Part shown: positions 9,668 to 47,328 of the stretch, piece after piece | How the letters are laid out: each line of letters starts with the position of its first letter | How positions within the stretch are numbered: position 1 is the stretch's first letter | Assembly: GCF_964194155.1 (NCBI RefSeq) | Contig: NW_027596118.1 | Span: forward strand, 806,001-870,000 | Direction of reading: 5' to 3' | DNA from: Cetorhinus maximus | Taxonomy: Eukaryota | Length of the DNA: 64,000 bases | Translations under genes and position numbers: made by a program | The notes under the pieces: model-generated | Database searches by the model: none | The model's input: only the letters and a program-made list of their open reading frames with translations | Told to the model about the DNA's origin: nothing

Positions 9668-10581
9668 TCATTTCTTCTCACCTTTTTGAAAGAATTCCAC
9701 GATTGGTGCAAAGGGACAGTTCAGTACCTGCTTCAATTGCTCCCTGAATTTTGTCAGGGTCAGGGCATAAATACAAGAATTTGTGGAGCAGCTCAGGAGC
9801 TGCAACATGAAGCCCAGTTCCTGTACATAAGGATGGAGTAATATGGAGTCATAACCCAAATTATGCATCCGGATCCATACAGAATACGCCGCAAACGTTG
9901 CCCACAACAGGAGGAAATTTGCCGAGATAGAAAACAGTAAAATCATGGATTTCCTTCGACTCTCCATCTCCGGATCTCTGAGCCCCTCTCCACTACTCTG
10001 AGCCAGGAGTCTCCTGCGGGCTCTGCTGCTCACTAAAATGTGTCTGATGGTGAAAACATTGAGCAGCAGAATCAGGACAAATGGGACACAGGGAGTAAGA
10101 ATGTAATGGACAAACTCGATTGTTACCCAAACCGTAGACAGGTAAACATCTAGCATTACAGAACAAAACCAGGGCAGGTTCATCAGTTGATAAAATCCTG
10201 TGAACATGAAATACCAGAAAAGGTTATTTAAAAAGCTCAGCACAGTCACTGTTCCAAGAACCGCAGCTGCTGTCTTTTCGGTACAATATCTACATTTCAA
10301 AGTTCGGCAAGATATAGCTACAAATCGGTCAAAAGTGAAAGTGACAGTGAACCAGACTGAGCAATCAGTGGCTGCATAAAGCAGCACGGCATGGATATTA
10401 CAGATACGAAGGTAGTACAAGAAATGAAACTGCTCCCGATGGACAATTGGAATATGCCTCAACACCATGTCGAGTATAATCACCATTAGATCCGCCGATG
10501 CCATAGCCAACAGGTAGTAAGTAACACATTTGGAGAGACCACATTTTCCCCGGGAAATGATCAGAATTGTCAGCGATATAA
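9668..10581 (-). CDS. GPR139-like: GPR139/GPR142-like class A GPCR, paralogue A, exon 2 (uninterrupted frame, end of TM1 to C-terminus)
   Basis: Acceptor TTTCCCTTGCTCGCAG ending at 10582; motifs YLLAMASADL (TM2), FTFDRFVAI (TM3), TPCVPF (TM5), RRKSMILLF..LLW (TM6), GFMLQLLSCSTNSCIY (TM7); about 304 open codons. Confidence 0.92.
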
Positions 10582-11149
10582 CTGCGAGCAAGGGAAATAA
10601 ACAGGAAAAGAATACATTAGGTTAGCATAATGGTTTCGTTGATCACATATTGTAATTTTCGATGGTGCCACTGTAACCATTAATACATTTAATTGATTTT
10701 ACCTGAAAGAACAAATAGTGGAGTTTTAAAATGTTGTATGTCTGGCGAGATTAAATGTTGAAAGCACAATACTGACATTGTAGAACTCAATTTTATTGGA
10801 GGTGCAGGAGCACAGCGACTTTGGGTGCCTGTTCCCAATATTTGAACACGTCAGGCGAGCTTAACCGAAACGGTTAATAAAACAGCTGGGACCTTCCACT
10901 TGATGAATGGATGCAAACTCCATAAATCTCCTCCACAACTTTTCAAAACACTTGTTTCGCCAAACATATTGTATTCTGCCGAATAATGTGCAGCTCACTT
11001 TCGAAGTAACGTGAATAATTTGTAGAGGGTAGAGAGGAGACAGGCAAGAATGGCACCGCAGGTGAGTGATTACAATAACATGGATAGATGGGAGAAGCTT
11101 ATTTATTGTCAAGAAGAGTGCAATCACAGAATGGGTGCAGCATGGAAGG

Positions 11150-11735
11150 TTGATATTCAGCACATCTTATCCATGCTGGTCCACTGACGGAGCAATTCGC
11201 TGGTGTCAGCGTATTCCAGATTAGGGTTTGCAATAAAGGTTTTCCTCAGGGGGACATCGCCTCTTTTTCAAATTACCTTACATCCATGCACTCTGATTCT
11301 CGATACTTCCAACATTGAAAGGGTTTCTCCATACCTACTTTTTCCAGACCGTTTATCATTTTAAATATCTCTTCAAGTCGCCCCTCAATGTTGTGTTTTC
11401 CAAGGAGAACAACCACAACTTTTCCAATTCATCTACACGACTGGGATTAATCATCTCAGAGCAAATTGTCGCCTATCTTTTCTGTACCATCTTTAGTGCC
11501 TTAGCATTCTTGTTAAAATGAGATTTCCAGAGCTGGGCACAATGCTCCATCTGAGGACGAAACTGCGTTTTATGGAGGTTTATCATCTCCATCTTCCTTT
11601 CGTACTCATAGAGCTCAGGATGCGCTAAGATTAATGAACCACTGTCTCAAAATATCCTCCCACCTTCACTGATTCACGCACATGTACATACAGATCACTC
11701 TGCTCCTGCACCAATGTCAGAATTGTGTGCTGAGA
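11150..11735 (-). mobile_element. Decayed CR1 LINE 3' fragment in the intron of paralogue A
   Basis: Antisense of CR1 ORF2 tail motifs (LRGDLKEIFK; CAQLW). Confidence 0.6.
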
Positions 11736-11799
11736 AAGTTACATTAACATGTTCAACATTTTGACCAGTTGAGCGAAATTGAAGGAAGATGCAGTTATC

Positions 11800-12560: not shown

Positions 12561-12722
12561 AAGGAGCAGCTAATCAGTGAAATGTGGCTTCCAGATATAA
12601 TAGCTACACAGAGAGACATCCAGGGATATCAAATGAACGGAAGACACGAATGTGAATTTCAAGCACAGCATTGCAACTGAACATTCTTTACGTACTTAAA
12701 AACTGGAGAGAAAAAGACTTAC

Positions 12723-12901
12723 GAGGCACACTAACAATAGCGAGCATTGGATAGTAAAAACATTAAATAACCTTGAAGAACCATTGGGACCCGATATTTG
12801 AATACGATTCCATAATAAATCGTCAACAGATAGTGAACATACCAGGGTAACCCCCAGCCTCTTGTATGATATAAATCGACTGTTCTCAGGTCCTGATCCA
12901 T
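12723..12901 (-). pseudogene. GPR139-like: Paralogue A exon 1, frameshifted
   Basis: Ends YYPMLAIVSVP-C|GTAAG (phase 1, compatible with exon 2). The ATG at 12901 (MDQDLRTVD...) is one base out of frame with YYP, with the lesion at about 12756-12770. The YYP frame has TAA three codons before YY. Confidence 0.8.
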
Positions 12902-13270
12902 TGTTCAAACATTCCAACCTCGTCTCAGATTCTGATCTTTGTTGTAAAAACCCAATCTATTGTTCTCAGATTCTGATCCTTTGTTGTAAAATTCCAAACT
13001 ATTGTTCTCAGATTCTGATCCATTTTTGTAATATTCCACTCTATTGTTCTCAGATTCTGATGTATTTTTGTAATATTCCAATCTATTGTTCTCAGATTCT
13101 AATCGATTGCTGTCACATTCTAAATATTGTTCTCAGATTCTGATCCATTGTTGTTACATTCTAATCTATTCTTCTCAGATCCTGATCCATTGTGGAAAAA
13201 AAATCCAAGCTGCTGGTCTCGGATTCGGACAGATCAATATAATAGTACAAACTATTGTCCTCCGATTCTA
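12880..13270 (-). repeat. 42-bp minisatellite (about 9-10 copies); consensus encodes MDQNLRTIDWNxTT
   Basis: TCTCAG anchors at 12884, 12923, 12964, 13006, 13048, 13090, 13131, 13173 and about 13217. The same unit is in frame in paralogue B exon 1. Confidence 0.9.
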
Positions 13271-15077: not shown

Positions 15078-15224
15078 GAATTTACCTTCACGCGTCCAAA
15101 CATTTGACAGTGAGAGCAATTTATTGTCCGCACCTCAATGTTGTGTGTTAAATGCGGCGTGGGGGAGACGGGGTGGGATAGGAAAATGCGGGGGGGTGGG
15201 ATGAGGAAAGTCAGATGTTCATTT

Positions 15225-15460: not shown

Positions 15461-16469
15461 TAAAAGCCCGGTATATCACCTTTCCTCCCTCTGTCTACCT
15501 GGTATATCACATTGGCGGAGCCCCGCTGCTGGTGTGTTTGTTATTATAGAATTCCGCAATCATGATCCTGGAATCTCACCCACACTCGCACGTTGTACCT
15601 ATTGTAATTTCACACTTCCCCGGTGCACCTGGAACGGGTACATCCCCCACTGTACCTGCTATATTACCTTCCTGCACTGTTGTGCCTGGAATACCCCCTA
15701 CCTCATGTAACTGTATTTTCCCTCGCACTACCGGCAATAAACATCATCCCTCCTTGCTGCTGCTGCTTTTGTTGATGGCCTGATTGCTCTCACAACCAGG
15801 GATTTGCGGGACCACTGATGACGCTCCCCTTCCCTCTGTTCTCCAGTCTGTATGGGTCTCTGTGCAGCGCTGCCAATTAACAGCTTATGGAACAGACTCT
15901 TTCCGTTTGTTCTGTGACCGTAACGGCCGCACATCCTCCCACTCCGCCCTCTGCCTGGTGTCAGCCCAGCAAACATCCCCTCTGCCGATGGAAAGAAAAA
16001 TAATATGGAAACGTAATGGACATCCTCAGTCTGTCAATGTTCAAATTCTCGGGTGGATTAAAGAATTGGAAGAAAACGATATTTCAGCACATTCTTCAAC
16101 TGCTCCCTGAACTGAACCTGGGTCACGGTGTTAATCCCAGTGTTTGTGCAGCAACTCAGGAGCTGCAGCATGAAGCCCAATTCCATCACAATATAATCTA
16201 GATCAACTTGCACATTCCCCAAGAACGATATCCGGCTCCACATAGGAAAGAATATTAACATTTCCCACAATAGGATGAAATTGGCTGAGATAACGAGCAG
16301 TAAAATCATGGATTTCCTCCGACTCTCGACCTTTGGGTCTCTGGGACTCTCCCCACTGCTGTGAACCTGGAGTCTCCTGCGGGCTCTGCTGTTCAGTAAA
16401 ATGTGTCTGACGGTGAGAACATTGAGCAGCACAATCAGGACAAATGGGAGACAGGGGGTAGAAATTAAG

Positions 16470-16808
16470 TGGGGCGATGGTGTAGAGGGATTGTCACTGG
16501 ACCAGAAAACAAGAATCATGGTCAGGGAACAGGCGTTTGAATCCCGCCCTGGCAGATGTTAGAATTTGAATTGAACAAAAACCTGGAATAAAAAGCACAT
16601 TGATGACCATGACACCATGGCCAACTGTGGCAAAATCCCACCTGGTTCACTAATGCCCTTTAGAGAAGGAAATCTGCTGGGCAATATGAGCCTCCAGACC
16701 CACGGCAATGTGGTTGACTCTTAATTGCCCTCTGAACAAGGGCAATTCGGGATGGGCAATAAATGTCAGCCTAGCCAGCGACGCCCACGTTTCATGAATG
16801 AATAAAAC
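16470..16808 (+). mobile_element. tRNA-derived SINE inserted in paralogue B exon 2
   Basis: A-box-like TGGTGTAGAGG (about 16478), B-box-like GTTTGAATCC (about 16535), body CTGGTTCACTAATGCCCTTTAG, and a LINE-derived tail ending TGAATGAATAAAA. It interrupts HHIL/TPC of TM5. Confidence 0.88.
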
Positions 16809-16852
16809 AAGAATGTGATGGAGGAACTCGACAGCTGTCCAGACGGGAGATG

Positions 16853-19800
16853 GTTTTGGAAAGAGTGTCATGCAGTCAGCGTCACCGTGAAGACGTCTGG
16901 AAAGAGTATCCTGCAGATATTTTTGAGAATAAAAATAGTGACATCAAAAAAGAGCGCGATGGAGAGATCAGAACCAGCGCGAGTGCGGGGATGCTTCAAA
17001 AAGTGACGGCAGCACAAAGGTGAGAGCTGATTGGTGAGTCACGGGGAAGTGTATTCCCCTGGGTAAGCTAAGGAAAGGTAATTTAAAATACATAAATAAC
17101 ATAAAGTTTATTTTTTACAGTATTTAACTTAAAGTAAAGAACGGTTTTTTTTTTCAAACTAGAGGCACGGCAGGGCAGCTCAGTCCCATGTTATGTACCG
17201 CCTTCAACATGTGGGAAGTCTTAGACGCTCCTTACTCTCTGACCGACCACATGTGCAGGAAGTGCCGTCAACTGAAGCTACATGAGCTCCGAGTTTCAGA
17301 GCTGGAGCGGCAGCTGGAGGCACTGAAGCGCATCGGCGAGGCTAAGAGTTTGGTGGCTGGAACGTTTTTAGGTATGGTGACCCCAAAGCAGACAGAGCTG
17401 GATTGGTAACCATCAGTCTGAAGAGATGTGTCAGACAGGTAGTTAGGAAATCCCGAGGGTGCATATCGCTCGAGAACCGTATTTCTGTGTTGGAAAACGG
17501 TGAGAGTGACGGTTCGACTGGGGAGTGCCACCACGCTCATGGCACTGAGTGGCTCAGCTGCACAACGGGGAAGGAAAAAGAGGGGAAGAACAATAGGTGC
17601 AGGAGGGTCCATAATAAAGCGAACAGACAGCCGTTTCTTAGGCCATTGACGTGACTCCAGGATGGTATGTTCCCTCCCTGGTGCCAGGATCAAGGATGTC
17701 ACTGGCTGAAGGGCATTCTAAAGTGGGAGGGCAAACAGACGGTGATCGTGTTACATATTTGTACCAACGACATCGCTGCAAAGAGGGATGAGGACCTACA
17801 AAAAGAATTTAGGCATCCAGGAAGCAGATTAAAAACAGGACCTCAAAGGTAGTGATCACCGGACTTCTTTCAATGCCACGCACTGGTGAGTATAGAAGTA
17901 GGGGATTAGTCCAAATGAATGCGTGGCTGGTCAGAAGGTGCAGGAGAGAGGGCTTTCTATTTATCGCATATTGGGACGGTTTCTGTGGGAAGTGGGACCT
18001 GTACAAGGCAGACAGGAAGCATCTGAACTGCAATGGGACCAACATCCTTGCGGGGAGGTTTGCTGGTGTTGTTGGTGAGGGTTTAAACTAACTTGTCATG
18101 GGGATGAGATCCTGAGAGGTGGTTCAGCAGGGGGAGTTGCACAGCCAAAATAAGTAGTGAGAGCAAGTGAGTCTTGAAGGCATATAAATATAGGCCAGTT
18201 AAGGCAGAAGCAAGTTTGGCAAGGTTGGATGGTATTTATTTTAATGCAAGGAGTCTGACAAAAAAGGCAGATTTGACAGCATAAGTTAACACATGGAAGT
18301 ATGATGTCCTTGCTGCCGCAGAGACATGGCTGTGAGAGGGGCATGATTGGCAGCTCAAAATCCCAGGGTATAGGGTCTTCAGGCGAGACAAGGAAGGGGG
18401 TATAAGAGGAGGGAGTTTCGCAATATTGGTCAAGGAATCAGTGACAGCAGTAAGGAGGCTCATAGAAGGCTCCTCAACTGAATCCATATGGATAGAACTG
18501 AAAAAACTAAAAAGGAGCAATCACATTGCTGGAAGTGTACTACAGGCCGCTAAACATTCATAGAGAAATGGAAGAGAAGATATCTAGGCAAATTATAGAG
18601 CAGTGTAAAAATAATAGGGTAGTAACATTGGGTGATTTCAAATTCCCCAACTTTAACTGGGTTAGTCCTAGTGTGGTAGATTTAGAGGGCTACGAATTCT
18701 TACAATGCACCCAGGAGAGCTTTTTAAGCCAGTACATCGAAGGTCCTACAAAGGAAGGGGCGGTCCTGCACTTAATTTTAGGAAATGAAGCCGGGCATGT
18801 GGACGAGGTATCTGTGGGGGACCGTTTTGGGCATATTGATCATAAATCCGTTAGATTAACGTTGTTATGGAAAAGGACAAGGGAGTGCCAGAAATCAGAG
18901 TTCTAAATTGAAGGAAGGTCAATTTTAAGAAGATCAGATATGATTTTACCAGAGTGGGCTGGGAGGAGCTTATTTTAGGTAAATTGGCATCAGAGCAGTG
19001 TGACTCATTCAAGATGGAAGTTGGGAGAGTGCAGGACCAGCATATTCCAGTAACAATAAAGGGCAGGAGCAATAAATCCAGGGAAACCTGGATCTCGAGG
19101 GATATAGAGGATTGGATAAAGAGAAAATGAAAGGCTTATGGCAGTTAACGAGAGCTCAAAACAGCGGATGCCCTAGAAGAGAATAGAGTGTATAGGGGGC
19201 AACTGAATAAGGAAGTTAGGAGAGCAAAAAGGGGGTATGAAAAATCATTGGCAGGAAAAATAAAGAAAAATACAAAGTTATTTTACAAGTTCATTAGGAG
19301 TAAGAGGTTAAGTAGGGAAAGAATAGAGCCCATTAAGGACCATTTTGGAAATGTGTGTGTGGAGTCGGAAAACGTAGGTCAGGTTCTAAATAAATGACTT
19401 GTATTTGTGTTCTCAAGTGAGAGGGGTGATAGAAATCATGCAGAGGTGCTGTGAGATAATTAAATAAATTAGCACAGAAAGGGAAGAAGTTCTAAGCGGT
19501 TGACAGGCTTAAAATAATATGAATCTCCAGGACCAGATGAAATTGATCCCAGGCTTTGAGTGAGGCAAGCGGGGAGATAACAGGGACTCTGGCAATAATT
19601 TTCAACACTTTTCTGACCACAGGAGAGTTGCCAGAGGAGCCAAAGTGGCACCGTTATTCAAGAAGGGAGGATGGGATATACTAGGGAACTAGAGGTCAGT
19701 CAGTCTAACAACAGTGGGTAAATTATTGGAAGTAATTCTGAGGGCGATACTTTATCTACACCTGGAGAGGCAGGGTAAATCAAGGACAGTCAGTTTGGTT

Positions 19801-21067
19801 TGGTTAAGGAGATGTTATGCCTGAGTAATTTGATTGAATTTTACGAAGACGTGACCAGGTGTGTAGATTATGGCAATGCATTTGATGTAGTCTACTTGGA
19901 CTTCAGCAAGGCTTTTGATATGGTCAGGAGACAGATAACGAAGGTAAGAGCCCGTGGGATCCAGGGCAATATGGCGAATTGGGCCCAGAATTGGCTGAGT
20001 GGCAGGAAGCACATGGTGATGGTCTACGGGGGTATTTGTGACTGGATGACTGTGTCCAGTGGCGTTCCACATGGGTCCGTGTTGGGTCCCGTGCTGTTTT
20101 GGGGATATATAAACGATTTAGATTTGAATGCAGGGGGGTTGATTAGTATGTTCGCGGATGGCACGAATATTTGTGGGGTGGTAAGTAGTAAGATTGATAG
20201 CCTTAGATTACAGGAGTATAGAGACAGGCTGATCAGATGGGCTGAACATTTTCAAATGTAATTTAATCCAGATAATGTTGAGTTTCTGGACTTGGGCAGG
20301 ACAATCAAGACACGGGAATATGAGGAATGTTAGGATCTTGGGAAGTACCGCGGATCATAGGGATCATGGTGTGCATGTCTAGCAGTCTCTTCATGTAGTC
20401 GGGCAGGTTGATAAGGTGTTTAAGAAAGCATATGGGATACCTGCCTTTATTAGACGAGGAATAGAATATAAGAGCAGGGAGGTTATGCTGAACTGTAAAA
20501 AACGCTGGTTAGGCCACATCTAGTGTATTGCGTGCAGTCTGGAATCCGCATTATAGGTAGGATGTGAGTACATCAGATTGTAGAGGAGATTTACGAGGAT
20601 GTTACCTGGCCTGGATATTTTTAGTTAGGAGGAGAGTTTGAATAAACTGGGGTTAGTTTCACTGGAGCAGAGGAGATTGAGAGGGGACATTATTGACGTG
20701 TATAAAAATATGAGGGGCAGAGATAGCGGAGTCAGGATGTTACTTTTCCCGTTCGTGGATGGACAAATAACGAGGGGGCATAGATTTAATGTAAGGGGCA
20801 GGAGGTTTAGAGAGAATGTGAGGAAGAATTATTTCACCCGGAAGGTGGTGAGAATCTGGAATTCACTGCCTGAAAGGGTGTTCGGGGCAGAAAACTTCAT
20901 AACATTTAAGAAGTATTTGGATGTGCACTTGTGATGCCCTGGCATACATGGCTATGGACCTATTGCTGCAAAATGGGATTAGAATAGTTAGGTACTTATT
21001 TGACCGGCGCAGACTCGATGGTCCGAGTTTTCTGTGCTGCAGACCACTTTGACTCTATTAATCTATG
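16853..21067 (+). mobile_element. Near full-length CR1 LINE (4.2 kb, inactivated)
   Basis: ORF1 Cys-rich/coiled coil (MWEV..CRKC..LRVSELERQL) and esterase-like (HICTNDI, HLN..GT) motifs. ORF2 APE (FNARSL, ETWL, YYRP, GDF.FP, DH) and RT (VYLDFSKAFD, GVPHGSVLGP, FADGT) motifs and tail FTRKVVRIWNSLP. Short ATG duplication at both junctions. Confidence 0.95.
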
Positions 21068-22129
21068 TCTGAAATTCTAATAATAGAAAAAAGAATCACG
21101 GGTTGTTCATCAGCAACTAAGAATCTGGTAACATGAAATAGCAGAAAATATTCTTTAAAAGGCTCAGCGCAGTCATTCCTCTCAGAGCCATTTTCACGGT
21201 GCAATATTTACTTTTCAGTTTCTGGAAATAAATGGCCACAAACCGATCAAATGTGAAAGTCTCTGAACCACACACAACGTCCAGTGGCTGCATAAAGCAG
21301 GACGGCATGGATATGACACAGACGCATGGCCCACAGGAAATGAAACCATTCCCAATACCCAATCAGAATGCTTGTAAATAACAACTATCAGTTTGCCTCA
21401 AGGCGCTGACATTTTCCACTATATTGCTGCCTGCAGTGCCGTATTGCAAGTATTGTACATGCAATAATAGACTGAAATGTCTCTGATATGGTGGGAGACA
21501 ATAGAGATTAAATGGCAATAACTATGTTACTTAAATTGCTGAAATCGGCTGTTAATCATAATCCTGTCCTCCTGGATACTTGAACTGGTATAAAAACTTT
21601 GCAATCTCCAAAATACTTGTAATTCTGATGAAGAAGAAATAATTCAGTTCAACATGGTTTATAGAATTAATAGCCATATACAGTGAGACTTACCCGGGAT
21701 GCCAAAAATAGCGAGGATGGGATAGTAACCCCCCTGAATCAGCTGAAGTGTCCGATAGATCCGGCTTTCCACTGACATCCGATCATAATATGTAGAAAGT
21801 TCATAAAGCGCCTCCAATGAACTCCTACTCATTGTTGTAACATTCCGATCTATTGTCCTCAGATCCTGATCCATTGTTGTAACATTCCAATCCATTGCTC
21901 TGAGAATCTGATCCATTGTTGGAACTTTCCAATATGTTGTTCTCAGACTCTGATATCCTCTCTCCCTGTCTTATAACCGCGGGTCCCTGTTCCTCAAGGA
22001 GCTGATGCCCCCGCTGACAATATGAGGTAACACAATGTTGCGACTCCCTGATTAACAACAGTGGGAAGCCCCCCTGTGAGTTATTTAGGATCTATGGAGA
22101 CTGACATTAATTACAGCCACTGAACAAAC

Positions 22130-23089: not shown

Positions 23090-26000
23090 CCCTCTCAGGA
23101 AATAGTCTTAAGAACTCCTCTCAGAAACTTCTCTCCGGAACCCCTCTGAGGAAGTTCCTCTTGTCATGCCGTACATAGAATACTTCTTAGTAAAATTACT
23201 CCTTCCAATGTGTATCACCTCACACTATTCAGGATTAATTTCCATCTGCCAGTTAACTGCCCATCAGACCATCCCGTCTAGATCTTCCTGTAACACAAGA
23301 CACTCGACCTCACTGTTGACCACCCGGCCAATATTTGTGTCATCCGCACACATACTAATGCTGCCCACCACATAGTCATCTATGCAGCTATCTATCCTCT
23401 CATGAACTCCTCTCAGGAACCACTCTCAGGAAGTACTCTCAGGAACACCTCTCAGTAAAAAATCTCCATAACTCCTCTCAGGAACTCCTCTCAGGGTATG
23501 CTCTCAGGAAACCCTCTCAGGAAGTTCCCCCAGGAAATCCACTCAGGAATTGCTCTAAGGATCTCCTCCCATGAACTCCACTCAGGAACTCCTCTCAGGA
23601 ACCCCTCTCGGAAATCCAGCCCAGGATCTTCTCGAAGGATCCCCTGTCAGGAAACCATCTTAGCAATTTCTCTTAGGATCCGCTCTCAGGAACTTCCCTG
23701 TTAAACCTGTCTCTTGAAGCGCTCTCAGGGTCTCCTCTCAGGAAACCTCTCAGGAATTCCACTCAGTAACGCCACTCAGAAAGCCCCTTTAGGAACCCAT
23801 CTCAGGGACGCCTCTCAAGAAACCCTCTCAGGAACCCTTCTCAGCAACTCGTTTCAGGAGCACATTTCACGAACTCCTCTCAGGAACCCCTCTCATGAAC
23901 TCCTCACAGGAGCCGACTCTCAGTAACTCCTCTCAGGAACTCCTCTCAGGAATGCCTCAGAGGAAACTTCGCATTAACTCCCCTCAGCAACTCGATTCAG
24001 GAACCCCTCTCAGGAACATCTCTCAAGAACCCCTCTCAGGAACTCTTCTTAGTAACACCACTCAGTAACTTCTCTAAGGAACCCCTCTCAGGAACCCCTA
24101 TCAGGATCTCCTCTCAGGACCTCATCTCAGGAATCCCTCTCAAGTACTTCTCGCATTAACTCATTTATGGAACCCCTCTCCAGAACTACCCTCAGTATAT
24201 CCCTCCCAGGAACCCCTGTCAGGAACTCGTCTAAGGAAGACCCCCACCCCACCCCCCAGGAACCCCTGTCAGGAACTCCTCTCAAGAACAACTCTCAGGA
24301 ACTCCTGTCAGGAAATCATCTCAGGGTCCCATCTCAGGTTCTCTGTTCAGTAATTCCTCTCAGGAATCCCTCTCAGGAAACACAGTCAGGAATTCATCTC
24401 AGGGATGCCTCTCAGGACCCCCTGACAGGAACCCCTGTCAGTTAATACCCGCTGTCACTTTGCTCATGACGCCTCTCAGGAACTAATCTTAGGAACTCCT
24501 CCCTGTATCTTCTCTCTGTAAACCGTCTGAGGAACACGTCTCAGGAACTCCTCTCAGTATCACCTATAAGGAACCACTCTCAGGAACCCCTCTCAGTAAC
24601 TGCTCTCTGGAACTCCTAACAGGAACACCTGTGAGAAACAACCCTCACTAAATCCTTTCAGGAACACCTCTCAGGGACTCCCCTCAGATGAATCCGTCTC
24701 ATGATCTCCTCTCATGAAACTCACTCAGGAACATCTCTCAGGAACTCCTCTAAGGAACACCACTCATTAATTCTTTTAGGAACCCCTCTCAGGAACCCCT
24801 ATCAGATTCTCCTCACTTGAACGCCTGTCAGGTACCCCTCTCAGGATCTCCTCTCAGGAACTCATCTCAGGAATCCCTCTCAAGTACTCCTCGCATTAAC
24901 TCCTCTATGGAACCCCTCTCCAGAGCTACACTCAGTAAATCCCTCCCATCAACCCCTGTCAGGAACACCTCTAAGGAAGCGCTCCCGCCCCCACACCCCT
25001 CCCACACAGGAAGCCCTCTCAGGAACACCTCTCAAGATCTACTCTCAGGAAGGCCTGTCAGGCAATCATCTCAGGGTCCCATCTCAGGATCTCTGTTCAT
25101 AATTCCTCTCAGGAATCCCTCTCTGGAACCACAGTCAGGAATTCATCTCAGGGATGCCTCTCAGGACCCCTTATCAGGAACCCCTCTCAGTTAATACCCT
25201 CTCTAACTCTCCTCATAACTCCTCTCAGGAACTAATCGCAGAAACTCCTCCCAGTATCTTCTCTCTATAAACCCTCTGAGGAAAACATCTCAGGAACTCC
25301 TCTCAGTATCACCTATAAGGAACCACTCTCAGGAACCCCTCTCAGTAACTGCTCTCTGGAACTCCTATCAGGAACCCCTCTCAGAAACACCCCTCTGCAA
25401 CTCCTCTCAGGAACCCCTCTCAGGAAAAGCTATATGGGACCCCCTTCAGGAACCGCACTCAAAAACTCCGCTCCGGAACTGCTATCAGGAACCCTTATCT
25501 GAAACAACAATTACTAAGTCCTATGAGGAACATCTCTCAGGAACGACTCTAAGGAAATCCTTTCAGGAACACCTCTCAGGGACTCCCCTCAGATGAATCC
25601 GTCTCATGATCTCCTCTCATGAAACTCACTCAGGAACATCTCTCAGGAACTCCTCTAAGGAACACCACTCAGTAATTCTTTTAGGAACCCCTCTCAGGAA
25701 CCCCTATCAGATTCTCCTCACTTGAACGCCTGTCAGGTACCCCTCTCAGGATCTCCTCTCAGGAACTCATCTCAGGAATCCCTCTCAAGTACTCCTCGCA
25801 TTAACTCCTCTATGGAACCCCTCTCCAGAACTACACTCAGTAAATCCCTCCCATCAACCCCTGTCAGGAACACCTCTAAGGAAGCGCTCCCGCCCCCACA
25901 CCCCTCCCACCCAGGAAGCCCTCTCAGGAACACCTCTCAAGATCTACTCTCAGGAAGGCCTGTCAGGCAATCATCTCAGGGTCCCATCTCAGGATCTCTG

Positions 26001-29000: not shown

Positions 29001-31800
29001 CAATAATTCCTCTCAGGAAACACTGTCAGGAACTCCTGTCAGGAACTCCTCTCAGGAGCCCCTCCAACGTCTCCTCTCAGGAACGCCTCACAGGATCTCC
29101 TCTCAGTAGCTCTTCCCAGGTACCCATCTCAGGATCTCCTCTCAGGATCGCCTCTCAGGACCTCTTCTCACTTACTCCTCTCAGCAGCTCCCCTCAGGAA
29201 GCACTCTCATGAAGTTTTCTCAGACACATCTCTCAGGAACCCTTTAGAGGTTGTCCACTCAGGAACCCTTCCCATGAATTCCAAGCAGGAACACATGTCA
29301 CAAACCCCTCTCAGTAATTCCTCTCAGGAACCCCTCACAGGAACCCCTCTAAGGAACCAATCTCAGGAACTACTCTCAGAAAAACCTCTCAGAAAACCCT
29401 CCCGGAAACAAACCTTAGTAACTCCAATCAGGAACCCCTCTCAGGATCTCTTCTCAGAAGCCACTCTTATGAACTCCTCTCAGTACCTCCTTCAGGAACA
29501 CAACTAAGGAACACCTCTCAGGATCCCCCCTCATGAACCCCTCTGAGGAATTCCTCTCTGGACCTCTTCTCAGTAACTCCTATCAGGAACCTCTCTCAGG
29601 AACACCTCTTATGAAACACTCTCAGAAATTCCTCAAAGGCACACCGCTCAGGAACCACTCTCTGAACCCTATCAGGAACGTGTCTCAGTACCCACTCTAT
29701 GTAACCCCTCTCATTAACTCATATCAGGAACACATCTCAGAAAAACCGCTCCGTAACTCCTCATGCAAAAGCATTTCAAGAACTTCACTCAGTAACTCCT
29801 CTCAGGAACTCCTCTCAGGAACTCCACACAGGAATATCTCCCGGGAAAGCCTCCCAGGAACTCCTCTCAGAAAAATATTTTAGGCTCCCCTCTCCAGAGC
29901 CCAATTCAGGAACTTCTCTCTGGAACCCATCTCAGGAATTCCTCAAAGGGACTCCTCCCAGGAACTCGCCTCTGAACTGCTCTCATGAACGCCTCTCAGT
30001 AACCCCTCTAAGGAAGCCATCTCATGAACTCCTCTAAGGAGTCATTCTCAGGGACCCCTCTCATGATCGCCTCTCAATAATGTTACTCAGGAGCTACCTC
30101 TCAGGAGCTACCTCTCAGTTTCTTCTTGCAGGAACCCCTCTCAGGATCTCCTCCCAAGTAGCCTCCATAGTAACTACTCTCAGGAATTCCTATTAAGAAC
30201 TCCTCTCAGTAAATCCTCTCAGGAACCCCTCTCAGGATCTACTCGCAGGAACCTCTGTCAGGAACTCCTCTCAGTAAACTCATATCAGAAATCCCTCTCA
30301 GGAGCCCTCGTCTGCAAAATGACTTAGGAGCCCCACTCAGCAACTCCTCACACGAAACACTCTCAATATCCCCTCTCAGGAACACCTCTCAGGAACCCCT
30401 CTGAGGAACAGCTCTCAGGGCCTCCTCTCAGGTACCCCTCTCAGGAACTCCACACAGGAAACGCACTAAGTAACCCCTCACAGGAATCCCTCCCAGGACA
30501 GCTTTCAGGATATCCTCTCACGTAACACTCTCAGGAAGTTTTCTCTGGAACACCTCTCAGGAACCCCTCTCAGGGAGTCCTCTCAAAAACTCCTCTGAGG
30601 TACTCCTCTCAGGGACCCCTCTCAGGATCTCCTCTCATCAACCCCTCTTTGGATCTCCTCTCAAGAAGTCCATTCAACAGCTTCTCTGAGGAATAACTCT
30701 CAGGAAACCCTCACAGGAGCTCCTCTCAGGAACTCCTCTCAGGAACTCCACACAGGAAACCCTCCACAGGATATCCTCTCAGGATCATTCTCAGAAATTC
30801 CTCTCAGGTATTTCCCTATTGAAATCCTCTCAGGAACTCCTCTCAGGTTCTCATTTAGGCACACCTCTCAGGAACAACTCTCAGGAATTCCTCTCTGGAA
30901 CTTTTCTATTGAACTCCTCTCAGGGACGCCTCTCAGTAACCCCTCACAGATACTACCCTCTGTAACACCTCTCATAACGCGTCTCAGGAACTCCATTCAG
31001 GAACTCCTCCCAGTAACGGCTCTCTGTAAATCCTCAGAGGCACACCTCTCAGCTGTGCCTCTCAGTATCCCCTCTAAGAAACCCCTCTCAGGAACCCCTC
31101 TCGGTAACTCCTCTCTGTAACTCCTTTCGGGAGCCCCTGTCATAAACAGCCCTCAGTAACTCCTCTCAGGAACATATCTCAGCAATTACTCACTGGTACC
31201 CCTCAAATGAAATCCTCTCACGAAATCCTCTCAGCAACTCCTCTCATGAACCCCTCTCAGTCACTCCTCTCAGGAACTTTTCACACGAACCCCACTTAGG
31301 AACGCCACTCAGGAACTTATCTCTGTAACTCCCTCTGTAACTCCCCTCAGGAACTCCACTCAGCAACTCCTCTCATCAACTCCTCTCAGGAACCCCTCTC
31401 AGGACGTCCCTTCAGAAGCAGCACTCAGTAACCAGTCTCAGGAACCACCCTACGTTACCCCTTCAGGAACTCCTCTCTGGTACTCCTCTCAGGAAGAACT
31501 CTCAGGAACACCTCTCATGTACTCCTCTCAGGAACTCCTCCCAGGAACTCCTCTCAGGAACTCCTCTCAGGAACTGCTCTCAGGAAGCCATCTCAGAAAC
31601 TCCTCTCAGGAACACCTCTCAGAAACTCCTCTCAGGAACTCCTCTCAGGTTCTGCAAACAGTAACTTATCTCAAGAACCCCACTCAGGAACTCCTCTCAG
31701 GAACTCTTCTCAGGAACTCCAGTCAGGAACTCTTCTTAGGAACTCCTCTCAGGAACTCCTCGTTCGAACCTCTCTCGGTAGCCCCACTCAGGAACCCCTC
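23090..31800. repeat. Satellite array, 13-bp monomer CTCAGGAACTCCT (several hundred diverged copies)
   Basis: Continuous tandem array; spurious ORFs show the 13-aa period LRNSSQELLSGTP; contains a 905-bp tandem duplication. Confidence 0.97.
23160..23390 (-). mobile_element. Internal CR1 RT fragment embedded in the satellite edge
   Basis: Minus-strand ADDTNIGRVV..LQEDLD..W..EINPE.CEVIH motifs. Confidence 0.75.
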
Positions 31801-32531: not shown

Positions 32532-33366
32532 CTAACATAGTGACGATTGTGTCACATTTGCAGAAAGTGTGGTCTCTCCAAATGTGACACTCGGCAAATG
32601 GTGACTATGGCAGTGGCAAACCTGGTTTCTTCAGCCTGATATTTCGACACTTTCTGATTGTTTTCTAAAAAGAGTTATGTTTCTTGAACTCCACCACCGT
32701 CTGAAATGCCAATACTATCAGCCACTGACTGTTCTGCCTGGTTCACAGTCACTCGCACCATTGAAAGCTCTGTAGCCATTTGTTGCCAAAATCTGACATG
32801 TAAGTATTGTGCTGGAGAAACAGCGGCTGATGTTCGGGTAATCATAACTTTTTTGCGCTGTTTAAGGAACATTTCCTGATATTTATTGTTAGCAAATGAG
32901 TATTGGCTGGCGACAAAAACCCGCTCTGTTTAGTGACAACAAATGACCTGCATTTTCTGGCCTGGAGAATAATCGAGTTCCTCAATCACATTCTAACCCT
33001 GGAGAGGCGATTTGCCCGGCTTCTGCTGCTCAATGGTTTCACTGTCAGGCACGGGTTAGTGACCAGCACAAGCTGCAGGAGATGCCAGGCTATCAAACAG
33101 ATGGAAAATCGAAGTGAACTCAACATTTTACTTTTGTCCTCTCAGCCAATTGCATCAGGTTATGGTCAACGTTTACGGTTTATTCTCTGTGATGGCAGAT
33201 GTTGGATGCGTTGTCTAGTTTTATGTTTCCAGGCAATTTTGTGCAAGTGTTTGGCTTCATTCTGCAGCTCCTGAATTGATGCACAATCATTTGCATTTAT
33301 ATTGTGACTCAGAATATGTTGCGATTGCATTTGAAGAATGTGCTGGAAAATGATTGAAGTAACTGA
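32532..33366 (+). pseudogene. GPR139-like: GPR139-like paralogue D, heavily decayed exon 2
   Basis: Acceptor TTTCTCTTCCGCTCAG ending at 32531, then (A)NIVTIV..KCGLSKC..MAVANL, ATDCSAWFTV, AICCQNL.CKYC, EFLNHIL, LNGFTVRH, GFILQLL, LKNVL, with many frameshifts and stops. No exon 1 found. Confidence 0.85.
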
Positions 33367-38110: not shown

Positions 38111-38675
38111 CTTTATTTTTGCGATTGTCACGAAGCATTTTTGATAATGGTATTTAGACACATTTATGTGACTGAATGTGTTGCCAAGGTCGATTATCAG
38201 TTTACATATTTAATGCAGCTAAGAGCTGGGGGTTTTAGGCCACGTCGAGGGAAAATGTACCCTTGGCTCCAGGTCTGTTGAATCAGTTTTGATTTATTTT
38301 TCCCAGTTTTTTTTTTCTCTTCCCGGTAGATTAGTGATGCTTTTGTTACTGCCGCGAGGAAAGTGTTATCCTTCAAATTGTGTTATTTGCTACCTGAAGC
38401 GAAAGGCAGCAACAGAGGTGATGGGCGTCATATCAGATCCGATGTTAAGGAGGATTTGTCAGGCGAAATTCCCAGTTTTATTCGGGTGCAATACTCGGAT
38501 CTCGCACGTGTAAATGCATGGGGTTTCTATGTTTCTTTATAATTCACAATCTCGTCTTTCTGCTTCACAGTTGCCCTTATCAATGATCCGACAGTGGATA
38601 TTTGTTGCAAGAAGCACTTGTATTTCAGCCCTTCATGTTCAAATCTTTCTATCTATCCATCCATCTATCTATTTA

Positions 38676-41500: not shown

Positions 41501-42869
41501 CCAATAAGGGAGACTAGGGTCATGAGGATGTACGTGTTGTGAGGGAGGTGGCGGAGGTGGCCGGTGTACTGCACTGGTTGGGTGAGAGCAGGCAGGATAG
41601 CGGGGCTGAGGCCACGATCAGGTAAACCATGAGCTTTCCGAGTTGCAGAACAGGCTCAAGGGGCCGAATGACCTACTGACCTTAACTATTCTGTTTTGGG
41701 TGCTTGTTTGAAATGCAGCCCACAGTAAAGCCGGAGGCGCCGTCGGTTCGGGTTCATTATACTCAGTGCATCCATCTGCTAATGATTGTCTGCAGAAGAC
41801 ATTTAAGGGCCACGAGTTAAATGTAAAGCGTGGAATACGCTCCAAGCTATGTACTCTAGATATCCAATTATTTTATTCCAAAAATTGTTTTTCATTCAGT
41901 TCAAACATCAGTCTGGATGGAGTTTGTGAGTGGGTGAGCAGGAGGATTGCATGGCTTGGGGAATCGTTACTGAGGGTGTCTGGGGTCGGATTGTCTTGAA
42001 CGCATTATTTTGAAATATTTCGGTACAGAAAACAAAAGCCTTCTCCAGACACTTTCTGTTGCGCATCAGGTCACCACCAACACCAACCTTCCAGTTCCTA
42101 TGGTTGCGTTTATAATTTCCAGGCAGAATGGTGCAAATTTATGTACAACGACACAGAATGTAGGTCAAGTCACTGACGGAAATGTCATTCCCAGAGGAAT
42201 CCACCGAAAGATCTGGGCAGCGTATGAGTTCCCTCTGGAAGATTAAATGACAAATACATACATCAGCCATGTGCCCTGTTGGAACATAGAATGGGTCCCG
42301 AAACACAAAACAGTGGTGAGCATCTGAAATTTCCCCACTACTTCCTCTGGCGGTTCATGCGAATTGAGGTTCCTCGAATAATTTTGATCTAAATTAGTAA
42401 CGATTTGATTCTCAACATCGCTCTGTGGGTCAGTCATTTCCCGCCGTGACTATCCACTTTGGGATCTACCCGATGCTCGTTAAAATATAGCCCTTTCAAT
42501 TGTATTGACCGCACAGATAATTGCAATGTTCGACGTTTCATTTCGAAACGGTTCCTTTCACAATGGGAGCGACTGACGTAACCTGTTTGTTAAATGACTG
42601 AAACTAATTGATTTCTTTAGGGGACATGAATGCGTTCATGGGGATTTATCTGCTGCCTACATAACAGTCTCTTTGACTGTCACATTTCATGTTTTCCAAA
42701 ACGCTCGGTGTATCTGTTTCAACAGGAGTTAACGCTTCTCACCGAGGATATAATTTGCTGCACTTCATCAGATACGGGCCATTTACAAACCCATTCTCGA
42801 ATCTGTCGTTTTCCGATGTACGTTTATTAACATGCTCTCGGACTAACAATATCAATTTCTGTCCTTCTT

Positions 42870-43413: not shown

Positions 43414-43483
43414 ATGGGAGAACTGATACTTCACCAGATAAAAGCCATTTACTATCCTATTCTTGCGGCTATTGGTGTTCCTG
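43414..43483 (+). CDS. GPR139-like: GPR139-like paralogue E, exon 1
   Basis: AAGATGG start; MGELILHQIKAIYYPILAAIGVP-G|GTAAG, phase 1. Confidence 0.88.
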
Positions 43484-43999: not shown

Positions 44000-44425
44000 C
44001 TTACTCACTTGTCTATTGAAATATATGCATTTCAAAAGCCTCAGTTATCGACCACCGTAATGAATTTAGATGAAGTCACTGAATTAACGCAAAAGGTGAC
44101 AGGCAAGTTTTGGTCGTGAAGCTTCCACAAGCAACAAGTTGACAATGACCAGATGACCCTTTTTGTGGGATTTGGCAGAGGTTTAAATAGTGTTCAGGAC
44201 GCAAGGGGCTACGACAATGTTGTTCGGCGAAATAGTAGCATGGATTCTTTGACGTTTACCCTGTGATTCGATTTGACATCTGTTCTGAAAGTTATTACAT
44301 CCGATAGTGCAGAACTACTTCACTATGGCAATGAAGCATTAGCCGAGAATTTTCTTCTCAAGTACTGAAGCCAGACGTAAGTATTCAAACATCTATCTCA
44401 GCACGCAGGTTGCTAACTGAGACAT
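44000..44425 (-). mobile_element. Old SINE (DeuSINE-like), decayed
   Basis: Antisense of degenerate GTACTGAGGGAGTGCTGCACTGTCGGAGGTG..CTTTCAGATGAGACGTTAAACC domain at about 44265-44330. Confidence 0.45.
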
Positions 44426-46438
44426 GAGTGGTCCGATTTCGACGATTGTGCGGAAGAAAGGCTCTGCCTCCGGGACCATGATTAAATGTAGCAACAGATT
44501 GTGGTGGAGAAGGTGGCAGCGCCTTCATGTTTACTTTTCACTTTTTTGTTTCTTGCCTGAGCTTTCAACGGAAAATATTTTTGGAAAAACAGTTTCTGAG
44601 AGAAGGTGGTCTTGAGCTTGTAGCCATACCGACTTTCTGTTCACAGCATTACACTCTTGCTAACTTATCTAACTTGCTTTGAAATGTAGAAAACTAATTT
44701 AATAAACGTCTACATCAAGTTATTACATATATGGCAGCTACAAATTATTTCAGTGAGATTCACTTAGAAAGTCCATTCTTCAAAATTCAAGTGGACGTTG
44801 ACTAAGTAAACAACAGAAATCATAATCCAACCGTGATTATCTGAGGCTCACGTCAATTTTGCTTGACTTATATAGATCATTTAATTTCAGCAGTAATCAG
44901 TATAAATGTCTGATGTTAATCTTCTGTATAATAATGCAGCATTGAATAACTTCACTAATTCTCTAAAAAGGTTCCTGCATTTAAAAAAAAAGAAATATAC
45001 ATTTTACCAAATAATGCTAAAATTCATGAGTTTTATGAGCTTTGCCCATCTGAAATGAAATAAGCTGTAGAGTATAATAATTTAAACATGGGTGTGTTAG
45101 GAGTTAGGTCTTTATCTTCAGGTAATCGACAATTCGTAATTTCACTTTTCTGAACATATGTTAGTCTTCAGACTCAAATCGATGTGCCCACCACGGTCAA
45201 TCATTATCGCAATCTTCTGCACTTGTTGGCCAACCAAAATCTATTTTCAGCTTCACATTTCAAATCACTTCACACTGATGCTGTGCTTCAGACGCAAGCG
45301 AATCCCTTCTGCCCTTTTGGCAACAAAGTGATTTGTTCTGCAGCCGATCAATTAATGGGAACTCTGTCCTGTCTACTCGGAAGCAAAACGCTACTTATGA
45401 CCTCACTAGTATCAAATTTTCGAATTGCTCATTCACTATGCTTTGCAAGAAATGTTCTCCTATGGCCAATAAACATTGCCCACTTAATCTGATAACAATA
45501 TCACCGTTCCCAGTCAGCCATTAAACTGCCCTCTTGATCAGAACTGAGTGCACCCATTCTGCATAGCAATGTTCCTTCAGTCTTTCTGCAATGAATTAGC
45601 GATGCATTGACCTGAAATAATCCAGCACAATGCCGAGCCAGCATATCAATCTCACCTTACTCAGTCTGACTTAAAACACATGACTGATCAATTCTCATCC
45701 CCGAATAAAACTTCTCCCTGGGAACGTGCATACGAATGTCACCTAGTAACGATTGGCATTGTACCGCCACTGTGATGACGCCTATGTAAACTTGCATTCG
45801 GCCTCATCTAAGCTGGTCTTTTATGTAGCTCAGTGACAATTTTTTGGTCCTCTGTTTTTACCATTTCATCTTTACCCTCACAAGTGTTCAGACTATGATC
45901 GTGCCCCTGAGCAATATTTTACCTTCAAGCTGTAAGTTATGTTGCAAAGTAATCCTTCCCAGTACTTATTCACATCTATAGACCACCCAGCAGTCATTAC
46001 GCCACTGCCTCCTCCAGAGTATATCTCTACTTGGCCTAGATTCTGTTTTGCGTTTTGATTTCCCATTTCACATTGTACCAACACACATGAATTGACCATT
46101 TACACCTTCCATTTACCTTTTAAAATCGACCATGACCAGCCGTTTGTGTGCATTCAAATTGTCCAGGTCAAGTTCGCCCTCAGCAATCTCAATCGTTATT
46201 GTACAATAGTTGTCCAGTTTGCCTTGAAGATGTTCCTTTCAAAAGTCGAATTATCGACTGATGTTTCTCTTCCCTAAGCACTTTCTCGAGGTCCCGTTAA
46301 CATTTAAAACATATTCACCTCGGAAAGCAGACTGTCCATATTTGGGTCAAATGCACGATCCTTTGCTGCAACAGGAAGAAAATTAATCACGTTCATCTGT
46401 GTTGTCTCTCTCAAGCTCTTTCAATCTCTCTCTTACAG

Positions 46439-47328
46439 TTAATGTTGTTGCGATTGTGATTCTTTCCCGAGGAAGGTGTGGCCTCTCCAAATGTATTACC
46501 CACTATATGATCGCCATGGCCGCGGCGGATCTCCTAGTTGTTTTTTCTGAAGCCATACTGAAGAATACGCTGGATATTTATTTCCCTGTTTTATTCTTGA
46601 CCATGAGTACGTTGTGCCAACTAAAATTGACATTGATTAATGTAGTCACATCAGCCTCTGTCTGGTTAACTTTGGTGTTCACCTTCGATCGTTTTGTGGT
46701 CATATGTTGTAAGAAGCTGCGAAAAAAATAGTGCACGGGTACAACAGCAATAGCTGTCATATCAGTGGTGAGTGTGTTGAGTTGTTTGGTAAACATTCCA
46801 TGGTACTTTGCGTATGAACCTGTGTATATAATGGACAATGTTATTCATGGTTGTGTCCTAAAGCAGACATTTTTCCTTTCTGCTGAATGGGTCGCATTTG
46901 ACTTGTTTACCCTTACCTTGACTCCATGTGCTCCATTCGTTCTAATTTTGTTGCTAAATGTTTTGACTGCTAGACGTATTTTGGCGGCCAGTAAAGTTCG
47001 CAGGAGTCTCCGCGGTTGCAGCAATGGAGGACATCACAAGGACCCTGAAATAGAAATCCGAAGAAAGTCCATTATTTTACTCTTCAGTATAACCGGCAGC
47101 TTTATATTGCTCTGGACAACACCGGTTATATATATTATTTATCTGCGTGTAACATTCACATCGAATTCTGCCGCAATTGAGCTTGAATCAGTTGGATTCA
47201 TGCTCGGGGTCCTCAGTTCCTGCACAAATACATTCATTTATGTGCTGGCACAGGCTAAGTTCAGGGAAGAGCTGAAGAGCGGAATGCAGTACCTTGTGAA
47301 AATGTGCGCAAAATTAAAGCTGAATTAA
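46439..47328 (+). pseudogene. GPR139-like: GPR139-like paralogue E, exon 2 with a single in-frame TAG at 46729-46731
   Basis: Acceptor TCTCTCTCTTACAG ending at 46438; VNVVAIVILSRGRCGLSKC..AMAAADLL..FTFDRFV..KK*CT..TPCAPF..RRKSIILLF..GFMLGVLSSCTNTFIY. The same frame continues on both sides of the stop. Confidence 0.9.

What the first reader, a model, noticed from the sequence alone, without database searches (positions are those of the whole stretch)
9668..47328. Tandem cluster of divergent GPR139-like receptors evolving by birth and death: candidate uncharacterised receptor repertoire
Seen: four paralogous 7TM genes in 38 kb share one exon boundary. The YYP..P|x phase-1 donor is present in A, B and E, and the matching acceptor in A, D and E. 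Intracellular motifs are conserved (SRGKCGLSKC, FTFDRF, RRKS.ILL, GFML.LLS), while the N-termini and ECL2 are strongly diverged. Established: mammalian GPR139 and GPR142 are single-copy receptors activated by aromatic amino acids (Trp/Phe). Clustered, pseudogene-rich GPCR families with variable outer surfaces are typical of chemosensory and immune receptors. Inference: this is part of a lineage-specific expanded family that may serve as an undescribed chemosensory or immune-sensing repertoire in cartilaginous fish. Such genes are often auto-annotated as probable GPR139, so their function is the novel part, not their existence.
Basis: partly seen in the sequence, partly recalled or inferred. 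Interest (0 to 1): 0.8.

Follow-up and report, generated by a model that had tools for sequence, protein, structure and literature searches.

The report
Huge orphan receptor family in sharks
These four broken receptor genes belong to a family of over a thousand related cell-surface receptor genes and gene remnants in this shark genome, distant cousins of the brain receptor GPR139, which may be a large undescribed set of chemical sensors in animals thought to have very few.

Summary
The four 7TM paralogs and their shared phase-1 intron are real, but none is a clean gene here: A has a stop in exon 1, E a stop in exon 2, B and D are fragmented. The window is one piece of a segmentally duplicated array (104 A-type, 144 E-type matches). 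An exact TM3 motif occurs 1,189 times in the genome (control 0). Many copies are intact and under purifying selection (omega about 0.5 in helices; exon 2 open in about 85% against 2-11% stop-free if neutral); the outer loops vary most. Named relatives come from sharks, rays and a chimaera. They are not GPR139: this genome holds a separate, conserved GPR139, the tree rejects joining them (p-AU 1e-42), and the Trp/Phe-pocket residues R6x51 and N7x38 are lost. The family is sister to low-copy orphan genes of salamanders, coelacanth, fishes and reptiles, probably the published 'GPR210'. Ten literature searches found no description of the expansion. Best reading: a birth-and-death receptor repertoire for environmental, probably peptide-like, cues, parallel to nematode srw. 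No expression data were found, so sensory versus immune or reproductive use is untested.

The parts
9668..10581 (-). Gene A exon 2 (end of TM1 to C-terminus), open frame of 303 codons; N1.50 replaced by Ile
12723..13200 (-). Gene A exon 1: 42-nt coding repeat (N-terminal stalk) and start of TM1; broken by a frameshift and a TAA at 12,765-12,763; donor CCTC|GTAAGT; intron 2,141 nt
16058..21400 (-). Pseudogene B exon 2 remnants (21,369-21,099; 16,850-16,809; about 16,560-16,058), frameshifted and interrupted by LINE endonuclease/reverse-transcriptase DNA
21694..21916 (-). Pseudogene B exon 1, open, 74 codons with three 42-nt repeat units; donor CCGG|GTAAGT
23395..31761 (.). 13-bp satellite (about 644 copies), part of the duplicated module
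32532..33355 (+). Pseudogene D exon 2, acceptor intact, several stops and frameshifts
38292..38483 (+). Further family fragment (TM1-TM2), decayed
42763..42807 (+). Exon-1-like fragment, weak match (E 0.029)
43414..43483 (+). Gene E exon 1, 23 codons plus 1 nt, short N-terminus; donor CCTG|GTAAGA
46439..47328 (+). Gene E exon 2 with one premature TAG at 46,729-46,731; close sister copies elsewhere are intact
58902..59030 (+).

Best explanation
The window holds four mostly dead members of a very large cartilaginous-fish family of two-exon class A GPCRs. The family arose from one orphan receptor gene of the GPR139/GPR142-related group (the sister branch, probably the published GPR210) and multiplied by tandem and segmental duplication from before the chimaera/elasmobranch split to the present. 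Shown: size, tree position, purifying selection on helices and inner loops, variable outer loops, frequent gene death, loss of the ancestral pocket arginine. Inferred: intact members are surface receptors that share one signalling route (conserved DRF, ICL1, ICL3 end, TM7) and differ in what they bind at the outer loops and pocket, so that together they form a repertoire for environmental chemicals, most likely peptide-like, in sensory cells (nose, taste, skin or gut). This would repeat what nematode srw genes are thought to have done from FMRFamide/myosuppressin-type receptors.
For: 1,189 exact motif matches, control 0; 35 of 40 A-type and 19 of 20 E-type exon 2 sequences carry that motif. 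Open exon 2 in 87 of 104 A-type, 123 of 144 E-type and 23 of 40 hand-picked other loci (24 by script, one dropped for an internal deletion); neutral simulation gives 11% and 2% stop-free. Complete two-exon E genes in 12 of the 13 copies where exon 1 was found, of 20 fetched. omega 0.67 (A) and 0.55 (E), both below 1 at p<1e-4; helices 0.51/0.47, inner loops 0.63/0.51, outer loops 1.06/0.77. In A, M2a beats M1a (LRT 51.9), with 5 of the 7 sites at posterior above 0.9 in ECL1-3 and one at the top of TM6. Entropy over 120 shark proteins is 1.3-2.0 bits in ECL1-3 against 0.26-0.77 in helices. Pocket positions 3x32, 3x33, 5x43, 6x51, 7x38 differ among subfamilies. Named members in sharks, skates, rays and Callorhinchus. 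Precedent: srw (PMC2576165, passages); GPR139 is linked to FMRFamide/AST-B receptors (PMC12208981, passages). Known shark chemoreceptor families are small: 34 V2R and 4-9 each of OR, TAAR, V1R in catshark (PMC10116579, passages); only 1 strong intact OR match among 23 in this genome (mammal-biased model).
Against: No expression or ligand evidence at all. None of the four window copies is intact. The amplified module carries pseudogenes and satellite with it, so recent copy number need not reflect selection. No positive selection in E (LRT 0.3), and the signal in A may come from gene conversion (incompatibility test p=0.0125). omega of 0.55-0.67 is high. In A-type copies exon 1 has collected several separate stops (20 of 33 lack a start 15 or more codons before the donor) and N1.50 is lost. 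Within the A-like clade the TM3 pocket face is nearly invariant (entropy 0.26), unlike odorant receptors (recalled). Outer loops are the most variable part of most GPCR families, so that pattern is not specific. Catshark olfactory neurons look accounted for by TRPC2/Go microvillous cells with V2Rs.
Confidence: 0.5

Rival explanations
1. Immune or barrier sentinel repertoire: the receptors sit on leukocytes, mast-like cells or skin and gut nerve endings and detect microbial, parasite or damage peptides, a working parallel to mammalian FPR and MRGPR families.
For: Fast turnover, possible positive selection on outer loops in A, a length-variable glycosylated N-terminal stalk. Cartilaginous fishes lack MAS1 and relatives (PMC8455134, passage).
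Against: No expression data; about a thousand loci is far beyond known immune GPCR clusters (recalled); no neighbouring immune genes seen in 264 kb (only family copies were mapped) or among 10 window ORFs scanned.
Confidence: 0.22
2. Reproductive family: ampliconic, inverted-repeat arrays of testis, sperm or oviduct receptors used in gamete or mate recognition, or driven by genetic conflict.
For: A copies often lie as inverted pairs about 70-85 kb apart on contigs filled with the array, an arrangement known from mammalian ampliconic testis genes (recalled). A snail expansion of FMRFamide-like receptors was linked to reproduction (PMC11589774, abstract and passages).
Against: The family is spread over many large contigs (C6, C11, C16, C19-C24, C29, C32, C34, C40) in deep subfamilies shared among orders; sex linkage not shown.
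Confidence: 0.1
3. Mostly passenger amplification: a modest number of working receptors caught in satellite-rich, duplication-prone regions; most copies are redundant or dying, and some are assembly duplicates.
For: 0 of 4 intact in the window; pseudogenes B and the satellite are copied with A; near-identical copies at 99.6%; C16:1-5 Mb mirrors C20:0.5-5 Mb in motif order; high omega; decaying exon 1 in A.
Against: Stop-free fractions far above the neutral simulation; omega about 0.5 in helices; 1,901 proteins at E<=0.001 in a collection clustered at 90% identity, the best 120 all from sharks where named; 131 clusters at 50% identity with E<=1e-30. Seven copies of identical or near-identical protein cannot be two haplotypes.
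Confidence: 0.13
4. Expanded GPR139/GPR142 orthologs that sense Trp/Phe as in mammals.
For: Database names; human GPR139 is the best solved-structure match to the family profile (51 bits, E 1e-12; next PAFR 43.8); same phase-1 intron; H5x43 and W6x48 kept in the A-like clade.
Against: A separate GPR139 exists in this genome, 83-95% identical to shark, bird and mammal GPR139; A and E are 24% identical to it; AU test rejects family+GPR139 (p 1e-42) and family+GPR139+GPR142 without the sister genes (p 5e-7); R6x51, N7x38 and E3x32 are lost and a TM3-ECL2 cysteine pair absent from GPR139 is present.
Confidence: 0.03

Closest known systems
GPR210A/B orphan clades near GPR139/GPR142 (Rinne et al. 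2019, PMC6504862; passages and one supplement searched)
   Same: Described as an orphan with three subtypes in coelacanth, gar and fishes beside GPR139/142. The nearest outside relatives found here are such low-copy genes: a salamander gene (P0234), a conserved gene of shark, ray-finned fish, coelacanth, amphibians, turtles and squamates (P0237 group) and a teleost gene (P0268); they join the family at 100/98, 98/94 and 100/99.
   Different: Those genes appear low-copy and keep R or K at 6x51; the cartilaginous-fish branch has about a thousand loci and has lost it. That paper has no occurrence of 'shark' or 'cartilaginous'. The match to the name GPR210 rests on distribution and position; the Ensembl accessions could not be checked.
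GPR139 and GPR142 (Trp/Phe-activated class A receptors)
   Same: Best solved-structure match, full-length alignment (hhalign 97.6%), same phase-1 intron before N1.50 (shown for this genome's GPR139), non-canonical TM7 without P7.50.
   Different: About 21-24% identity, separate clade, pocket residues R6x51/N7x38/E3x32 lost, TM3-ECL2 cysteines present, longer ICL3, about a thousand loci against one GPR139 motif match.
Nematode srw putative chemoreceptors (PMC2576165, passages)
   Same: Large, clustered birth-and-death expansion from FMRFamide/myosuppressin-type receptors, proposed to sense environmental peptides; Srw/Srx Pfam labels occur on GPR139 proteins and on neighbouring Atlas clusters.
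   Different: An independent expansion in invertebrates; genes A and E match only 7tm_1, not Srw, in Pfam. A parallel, not membership.
Vertebrate OR, TAAR, V1R/ORA, V2R/OlfC and T2R chemoreceptor families
   Same: Scale, clustering, pseudogene load and outer-surface variation resemble them.
   Different: Not related beyond class A: no 7tm_4 match for A or E, the one OR row falls with the outgroup, and the genes have an intron in TM1. TAAR, V1R, V2R and T2R sequences were not in the tree.

Membership tests
Class A (rhodopsin-like) GPCR | 7tm_1 profile match and core motifs D2.50, D/ERY-like, P5.50, N7.49..Y7.53, TM3-ECL2 disulfide | tested here: met
   60.2 bits, cut-off 30.5; D2.50 120/120, R3.50 119/120, P5.50 118/120, C3.25 and ECL2 Cys 120/120; P7.50 replaced by T/S; N1.50 lost in A-type
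GPR139 orthologs | Groups with vertebrate GPR139 in a tree | tested here: not met
   (p-AU 1.2e-42); a separate true GPR139 in G000
GPR139 orthologs | Ligand pocket F3x33, H5x43, W6x48, R6x51, N7x38 (PMC5430874) | tested here: not met
   among 120 A-like proteins R6x51 is L/F in 111, N7x38 is F/Y in 114, E3x32 is L in 117; W6x48 kept in 120, H5x43 in 115, 3x33 Y or F in 117
GPR139 orthologs | Activation by L-Trp/L-Phe | not testable with these tools
   needs a cell assay
GPR139/GPR142/GPR210-related group | Phase-1 intron just before N1.50 in TM1 | tested here: met
   family donors/acceptors and the acceptor of this genome's GPR139 fall at the same place; not checked for GPR142 or the sister genes
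GPR139/GPR142/GPR210-related group | One clade against other class A receptors | tested here: inconclusive
   98/90, but the 9 outgroup rows were amine-, somatostatin-, chemokine- and OR-like (labels from recall of their sequences); TRH, neuromedin U and PAF receptors, which also match the profile, were not in the tree
GPR210 clade | Nested with the coelacanth/gar/fish orphan subtypes next to GPR139/142 | tested here: inconclusive
   nested with such genes at 100/99; identity of those genes with the paper's Ensembl accessions not verified
Chemosensory receptor repertoire (works like OR/V2R/srw) | Large clustered family with birth-and-death turnover and purifying selection on intact members | tested here: met
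Chemosensory receptor repertoire (works like OR/V2R/srw) | Diversified ligand-facing surface | tested here: inconclusive
   outer loops most variable and pocket differs among subfamilies; positive selection in A only, with a recombination signal
Chemosensory receptor repertoire (works like OR/V2R/srw) | Sparse expression in sensory cells and response to external ligands | not testable with these tools
   no RNA holder listed
Odorant receptors (OR) | 7tm_4 profile match, intronless coding region | tested here: not met

The most novel reading that the evidence does not exclude
Cartilaginous fishes have a further, undescribed vertebrate chemoreceptor family of several hundred working genes, built independently from a neuropeptide-type orphan receptor of the GPR139/GPR210 group, which outnumbers their known olfactory receptors about tenfold and could account for much of their chemical sensing; one branch carries a length-variable, N-glycosylated repeat stalk.
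Probability: 0.4. Interest if true: 0.95.

Novelty: new variant of a known kind. Interest (0 to 1): 0.8.

Why it matters
Cartilaginous fishes are described as poor in GPCRs (PMC8455134) and as smelling with a few dozen receptors (PMC10116579). A family of about a thousand loci hidden under the automatic name 'probable GPR139' contradicts the first statement and offers a direct test of the second: map existing shark tissue RNA-seq to these genes. If sensory, it is a new vertebrate chemoreceptor family and another case of this receptor group being recruited for outside cues, as proposed for nematode srw. If immune or reproductive, it is still probably the largest class A family of these animals. 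It also means that 'GPR139' labels in shark, fish and amphibian annotations cover at least four different lineages.

Tried and rejected
Expression: one search for RNA runs with an intact E-type exon listed 6 runs, no RNA holder; the one guessed RNA run laid nothing. Neither bears on expression. The catshark atlas supplement (PMC11979771) could not be read and bioRxiv supplements are closed; the Squalomix tandem-cluster supplement (10.1101/2025.06.08.657570) and the catshark tissue tables may list these genes. Single-sequence search of solved structures was not discriminating (GPR139 E 1.6e-4, below muscarinic and 5-HT1E receptors); the profile was needed. Literature searches that found no description of the expansion; the library lacks most subscription papers. 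PMC11886862 had no passage on GPR139, FMRFamide or srw. Rejected: sequencing or assembly error for the stop in A (the same TAA is in at least 10 other fetched copies); a regular tandem macrosatellite (the 264 kb mapped is a patchwork of direct and inverted blocks at about 85-96%); the long open frames at 24-31.8 kb (by-products of the 13-bp satellite). Four 10-kb probes of C40 away from 17.8-18.2 Mb and two of five C60 stretches held no family match. Two scripts mis-parsed some loci and were replaced.
Full report
OBSERVATION. Six-frame translation and tblastn find four 7TM paralogs and three further fragments in the window. A exon 2 (10,581-9,668, minus) matches Pfam 7tm_1 at 60 bits. None of the four is a clean gene. 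A has a TAA two codons before the FYYP motif and a frameshift in exon 1. B has a good exon 1 but a frameshifted exon 2 split by LINE DNA. D has several stops. E has one TAG at 46,729-46,731. A and E are 42.5% identical.

GENOMIC SETTING. The window is G000:C60:806,001-870,000. A search with A exon 2 gave 5,517 candidates; of the 130 scored, 104 are 84-100% identical, and 87 of these are full length without a stop (counted by hand from the table). A search with the second half of E exon 2 gave 4,197 candidates; of 150 scored, 144 are 70-100% identical and 123 of them have an open frame over the whole exon (counted by hand). Both sets lie mostly on the same mid-sized contigs; 15 of them, whose lengths searches give, sum to about 16.5 Mb, and C40 holds copies at 17.8-18.2 Mb. 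In 264 kb of C60 the module of A, pseudogene B and the satellite recurs three times, direct and inverted, at about 85-96% identity, with other subfamily members between. So the cluster is one unit of a segmentally duplicated array, and dead genes are copied with live ones.

SIZE OF THE FAMILY. An exact DNA pattern for the end of TM3 gave 860 matches and a slightly wider one 1,189, with 0 for the reversed control both times. The wider pattern hits 35 of 40 A-type and 19 of 20 E-type exons but only 23 of 59 divergent database members carry the motif, so it undercounts loci; near-identical blocks, perhaps partly assembly duplicates, inflate it. Of 40 loci that I picked by hand from the first 100 listed, 24 passed a script test for an open exon 2 and one of these has an internal deletion, leaving 23 of 40; exon 1 was not checked for them. 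Several hundred coding genes is a fair inference, not a count. Contigs of three unnamed DNA runs lay on gene E in hundreds of variants at 90-100% identity (481, 471 and 325 records), which fits many real copies, though two runs may be the assembly's own sample. In public proteins, gene A finds 1,901 relatives at E<=0.001; the best 120 are, where named, all from sharks and nearly all called 'probable GPR139'. A profile finds 131 clusters of 50% identity at E<=1e-30; the 22 family representatives looked up that bear names (2, all but one unnamed protein, 10) come from sharks, skates, rays and Callorhinchus, so the family predates the chimaera/elasmobranch split.

WHAT THEY ARE RELATED TO. Human GPR139 is the best solved-structure match to the family profile (51 bits; PAF receptor 44, neuromedin U receptor 34), and this genome's own GPR139 has the same phase-1 acceptor before N1.50. 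But that GPR139 is a separate gene, found once by motif, 83-95% identical to shark, bird and mammal GPR139 and 24% identical to A and E. The closest outside relatives are low-copy orphans: a salamander gene, a conserved gene found from sharks to squamates and turtles (no mammal or bird among the 120 listed), a teleost gene and amphioxus genes. In a tree of 55 of 73 prepared rows (18 dropped for run time; LG+G4, no mixture model) the 22 family rows form one group (100/99), sister to the salamander gene (100/98), then the conserved gene (98/94) and the teleost gene (100/99); GPR139 and GPR142 form their own clade (100/100); the amphioxus rows join the family side with weaker support (94/83). AU tests reject family+GPR139 (p 1e-42) and family+GPR139+GPR142 without the sister genes (p 5e-7). 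Rinne et al. named three coelacanth/gar/fish subtypes beside GPR139/142 'GPR210' (PMC6504862, passages); these are probably the sister genes, but I could not match accessions. The outgroup lacked TRH, neuromedin U and PAF receptors.

POCKET AND SURFACE. Residues needed for Trp/Phe activation of GPR139 (PMC5430874, passages) were mapped by alignment. W6x48 and, in the A-like clade, H5x43 and an aromatic 3x33 are kept; R6x51, N7x38 and E3x32 are not. R or K at 6x51 is present in all 7 sister and amphioxus rows, so its loss marks the expansion. The family has the TM3-ECL2 cysteine pair that GPR139 lacks. Over 120 A-like proteins entropy is 1.34, 1.78 and 1.95 bits in ECL1-3 against 0.26-0.77 in helices; across subfamilies the pocket positions also change.

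SELECTION. With my own codon-model code on fixed trees, omega is 0.67 for 39 A exons and 0.55 for 20 E exons, both below 1 (p 4e-5, 3e-11); by region 0.51/0.47 in helices, 0.63/0.51 in inner loops, 1.06/0.77 in outer loops. These sets were chosen for open frames. A site model finds positive selection in A (LRT 51.9; 7 sites above 0.9, five in outer loops) but none in E; A also shows a recombination signal (p 0.0125), which can fake this. Neutral simulation on the same trees leaves 11% (A) and 2% (E) of copies stop-free, never 84% in 300 runs; frameshifted copies may be under-listed in the searches, stop-bearing ones are read through. Complete genes: 12 of the 13 E copies whose exon 1 lay within 10 kb, of 20 fetched; 13 of 33 A copies with a located exon 1 have a 20-residue start, 20 do not, and three more of the 40 have a long open exon 1. 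The window's A belongs to a recent branch whose exon 1 is broken while exon 2 stays open; either it died recently or uses another start.

A CODING REPEAT STALK. The A-like clade has a 42-nt (14-residue) repeat in exon 1. An A copy 183 kb upstream has an open 255-residue exon 1 with 15 units and 8 N-glycosylation sequons; 42 of 120 database proteins show at least one unit. The N-terminus thus ranges from about 20 to 255 residues.

HOW IT MOST LIKELY WORKS. Shown: a very large, old, still turning-over family under purifying selection with a conserved inner face. Inferred: a repertoire that feeds one signalling route from many ligands. Its root among FMRFamide/AST-B-type receptors (PMC12208981, passages) and the srw precedent (PMC2576165, passages) point to peptide-like outside cues. 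I give 0.5 to a sensory repertoire, 0.22 to immune or barrier sensing, 0.13 to mostly passenger amplification, 0.10 to a reproductive role, 0.03 to GPR139-like Trp/Phe sensing. No expression data could be had.

NOVELTY. Ten searches found no paper on the expansion; passages of the catshark, whale shark, shark olfaction and Squalomix tandem-gene papers do not mention it, but their supplements were not seen and subscription papers are not in the library. The genes are annotated in public databases. Verdict: real, larger than first read, misnamed, function open; interest 0.8.

Noticed in passing
window 23,395-31,761: An 8.4-kb satellite of a 13-bp unit (about 644 copies, with a 905-bp higher-order repeat) that travels with the duplicated receptor module and gives long spurious open frames.
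   Followed up: partly
G000:C60:634,661-635,420 (locus L023), and window 12,874-13,200, 21,830-21,954: Coding 42-nt minisatellite that builds a length-variable N-terminal stalk with N-glycosylation sequons; 15 units and 255 residues in one open copy.
   Followed up: partly
G000:C16:1-5 Mb and C20:0.5-5 Mb (listing): The motif variants appear in mirrored order near the ends of two large contigs: a multi-megabase duplication or an assembly artefact.
   Followed up: no
P0237 group, P0234 group and P0268: At least three low-copy orphan receptor lineages in non-mammalian vertebrates are annotated 'probable GPR139' though they are not GPR139; some records of the P0237 group are named TMEM183A isoforms, hinting at a fixed neighbour.
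   Followed up: partly
A-type copies L042-L081: Exon 1 carries several separate stops near the start of TM1 while exon 2 stays open, and N1.50 is Ile in the window copy and in white shark P0002; an alternative start or first exon is possible.
   Followed up: partly
G000:C29 and small contigs (last 26 rows): A second amplified subfamily, about 69% identical to A, forms its own array of near-identical copies.
   Followed up: no
window 63,364-63,932: A 168-residue frame flanked by a 66-nt inverted repeat; looks like a GIY-YIG/Penelope-type retroelement end by recall, no Pfam match.
   Followed up: partly
window 4,011-4,563 and 6,127-6,850: Nested inverted repeats of 50-177 nt at 73-87% complementarity about 2 kb apart, probably an old transposon pair.
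   Followed up: no
G000:C7:5,432,008-5,432,841 (L172): The only strong intact match to the odorant-receptor profile among 23 matches in this genome.
   Followed up: partly
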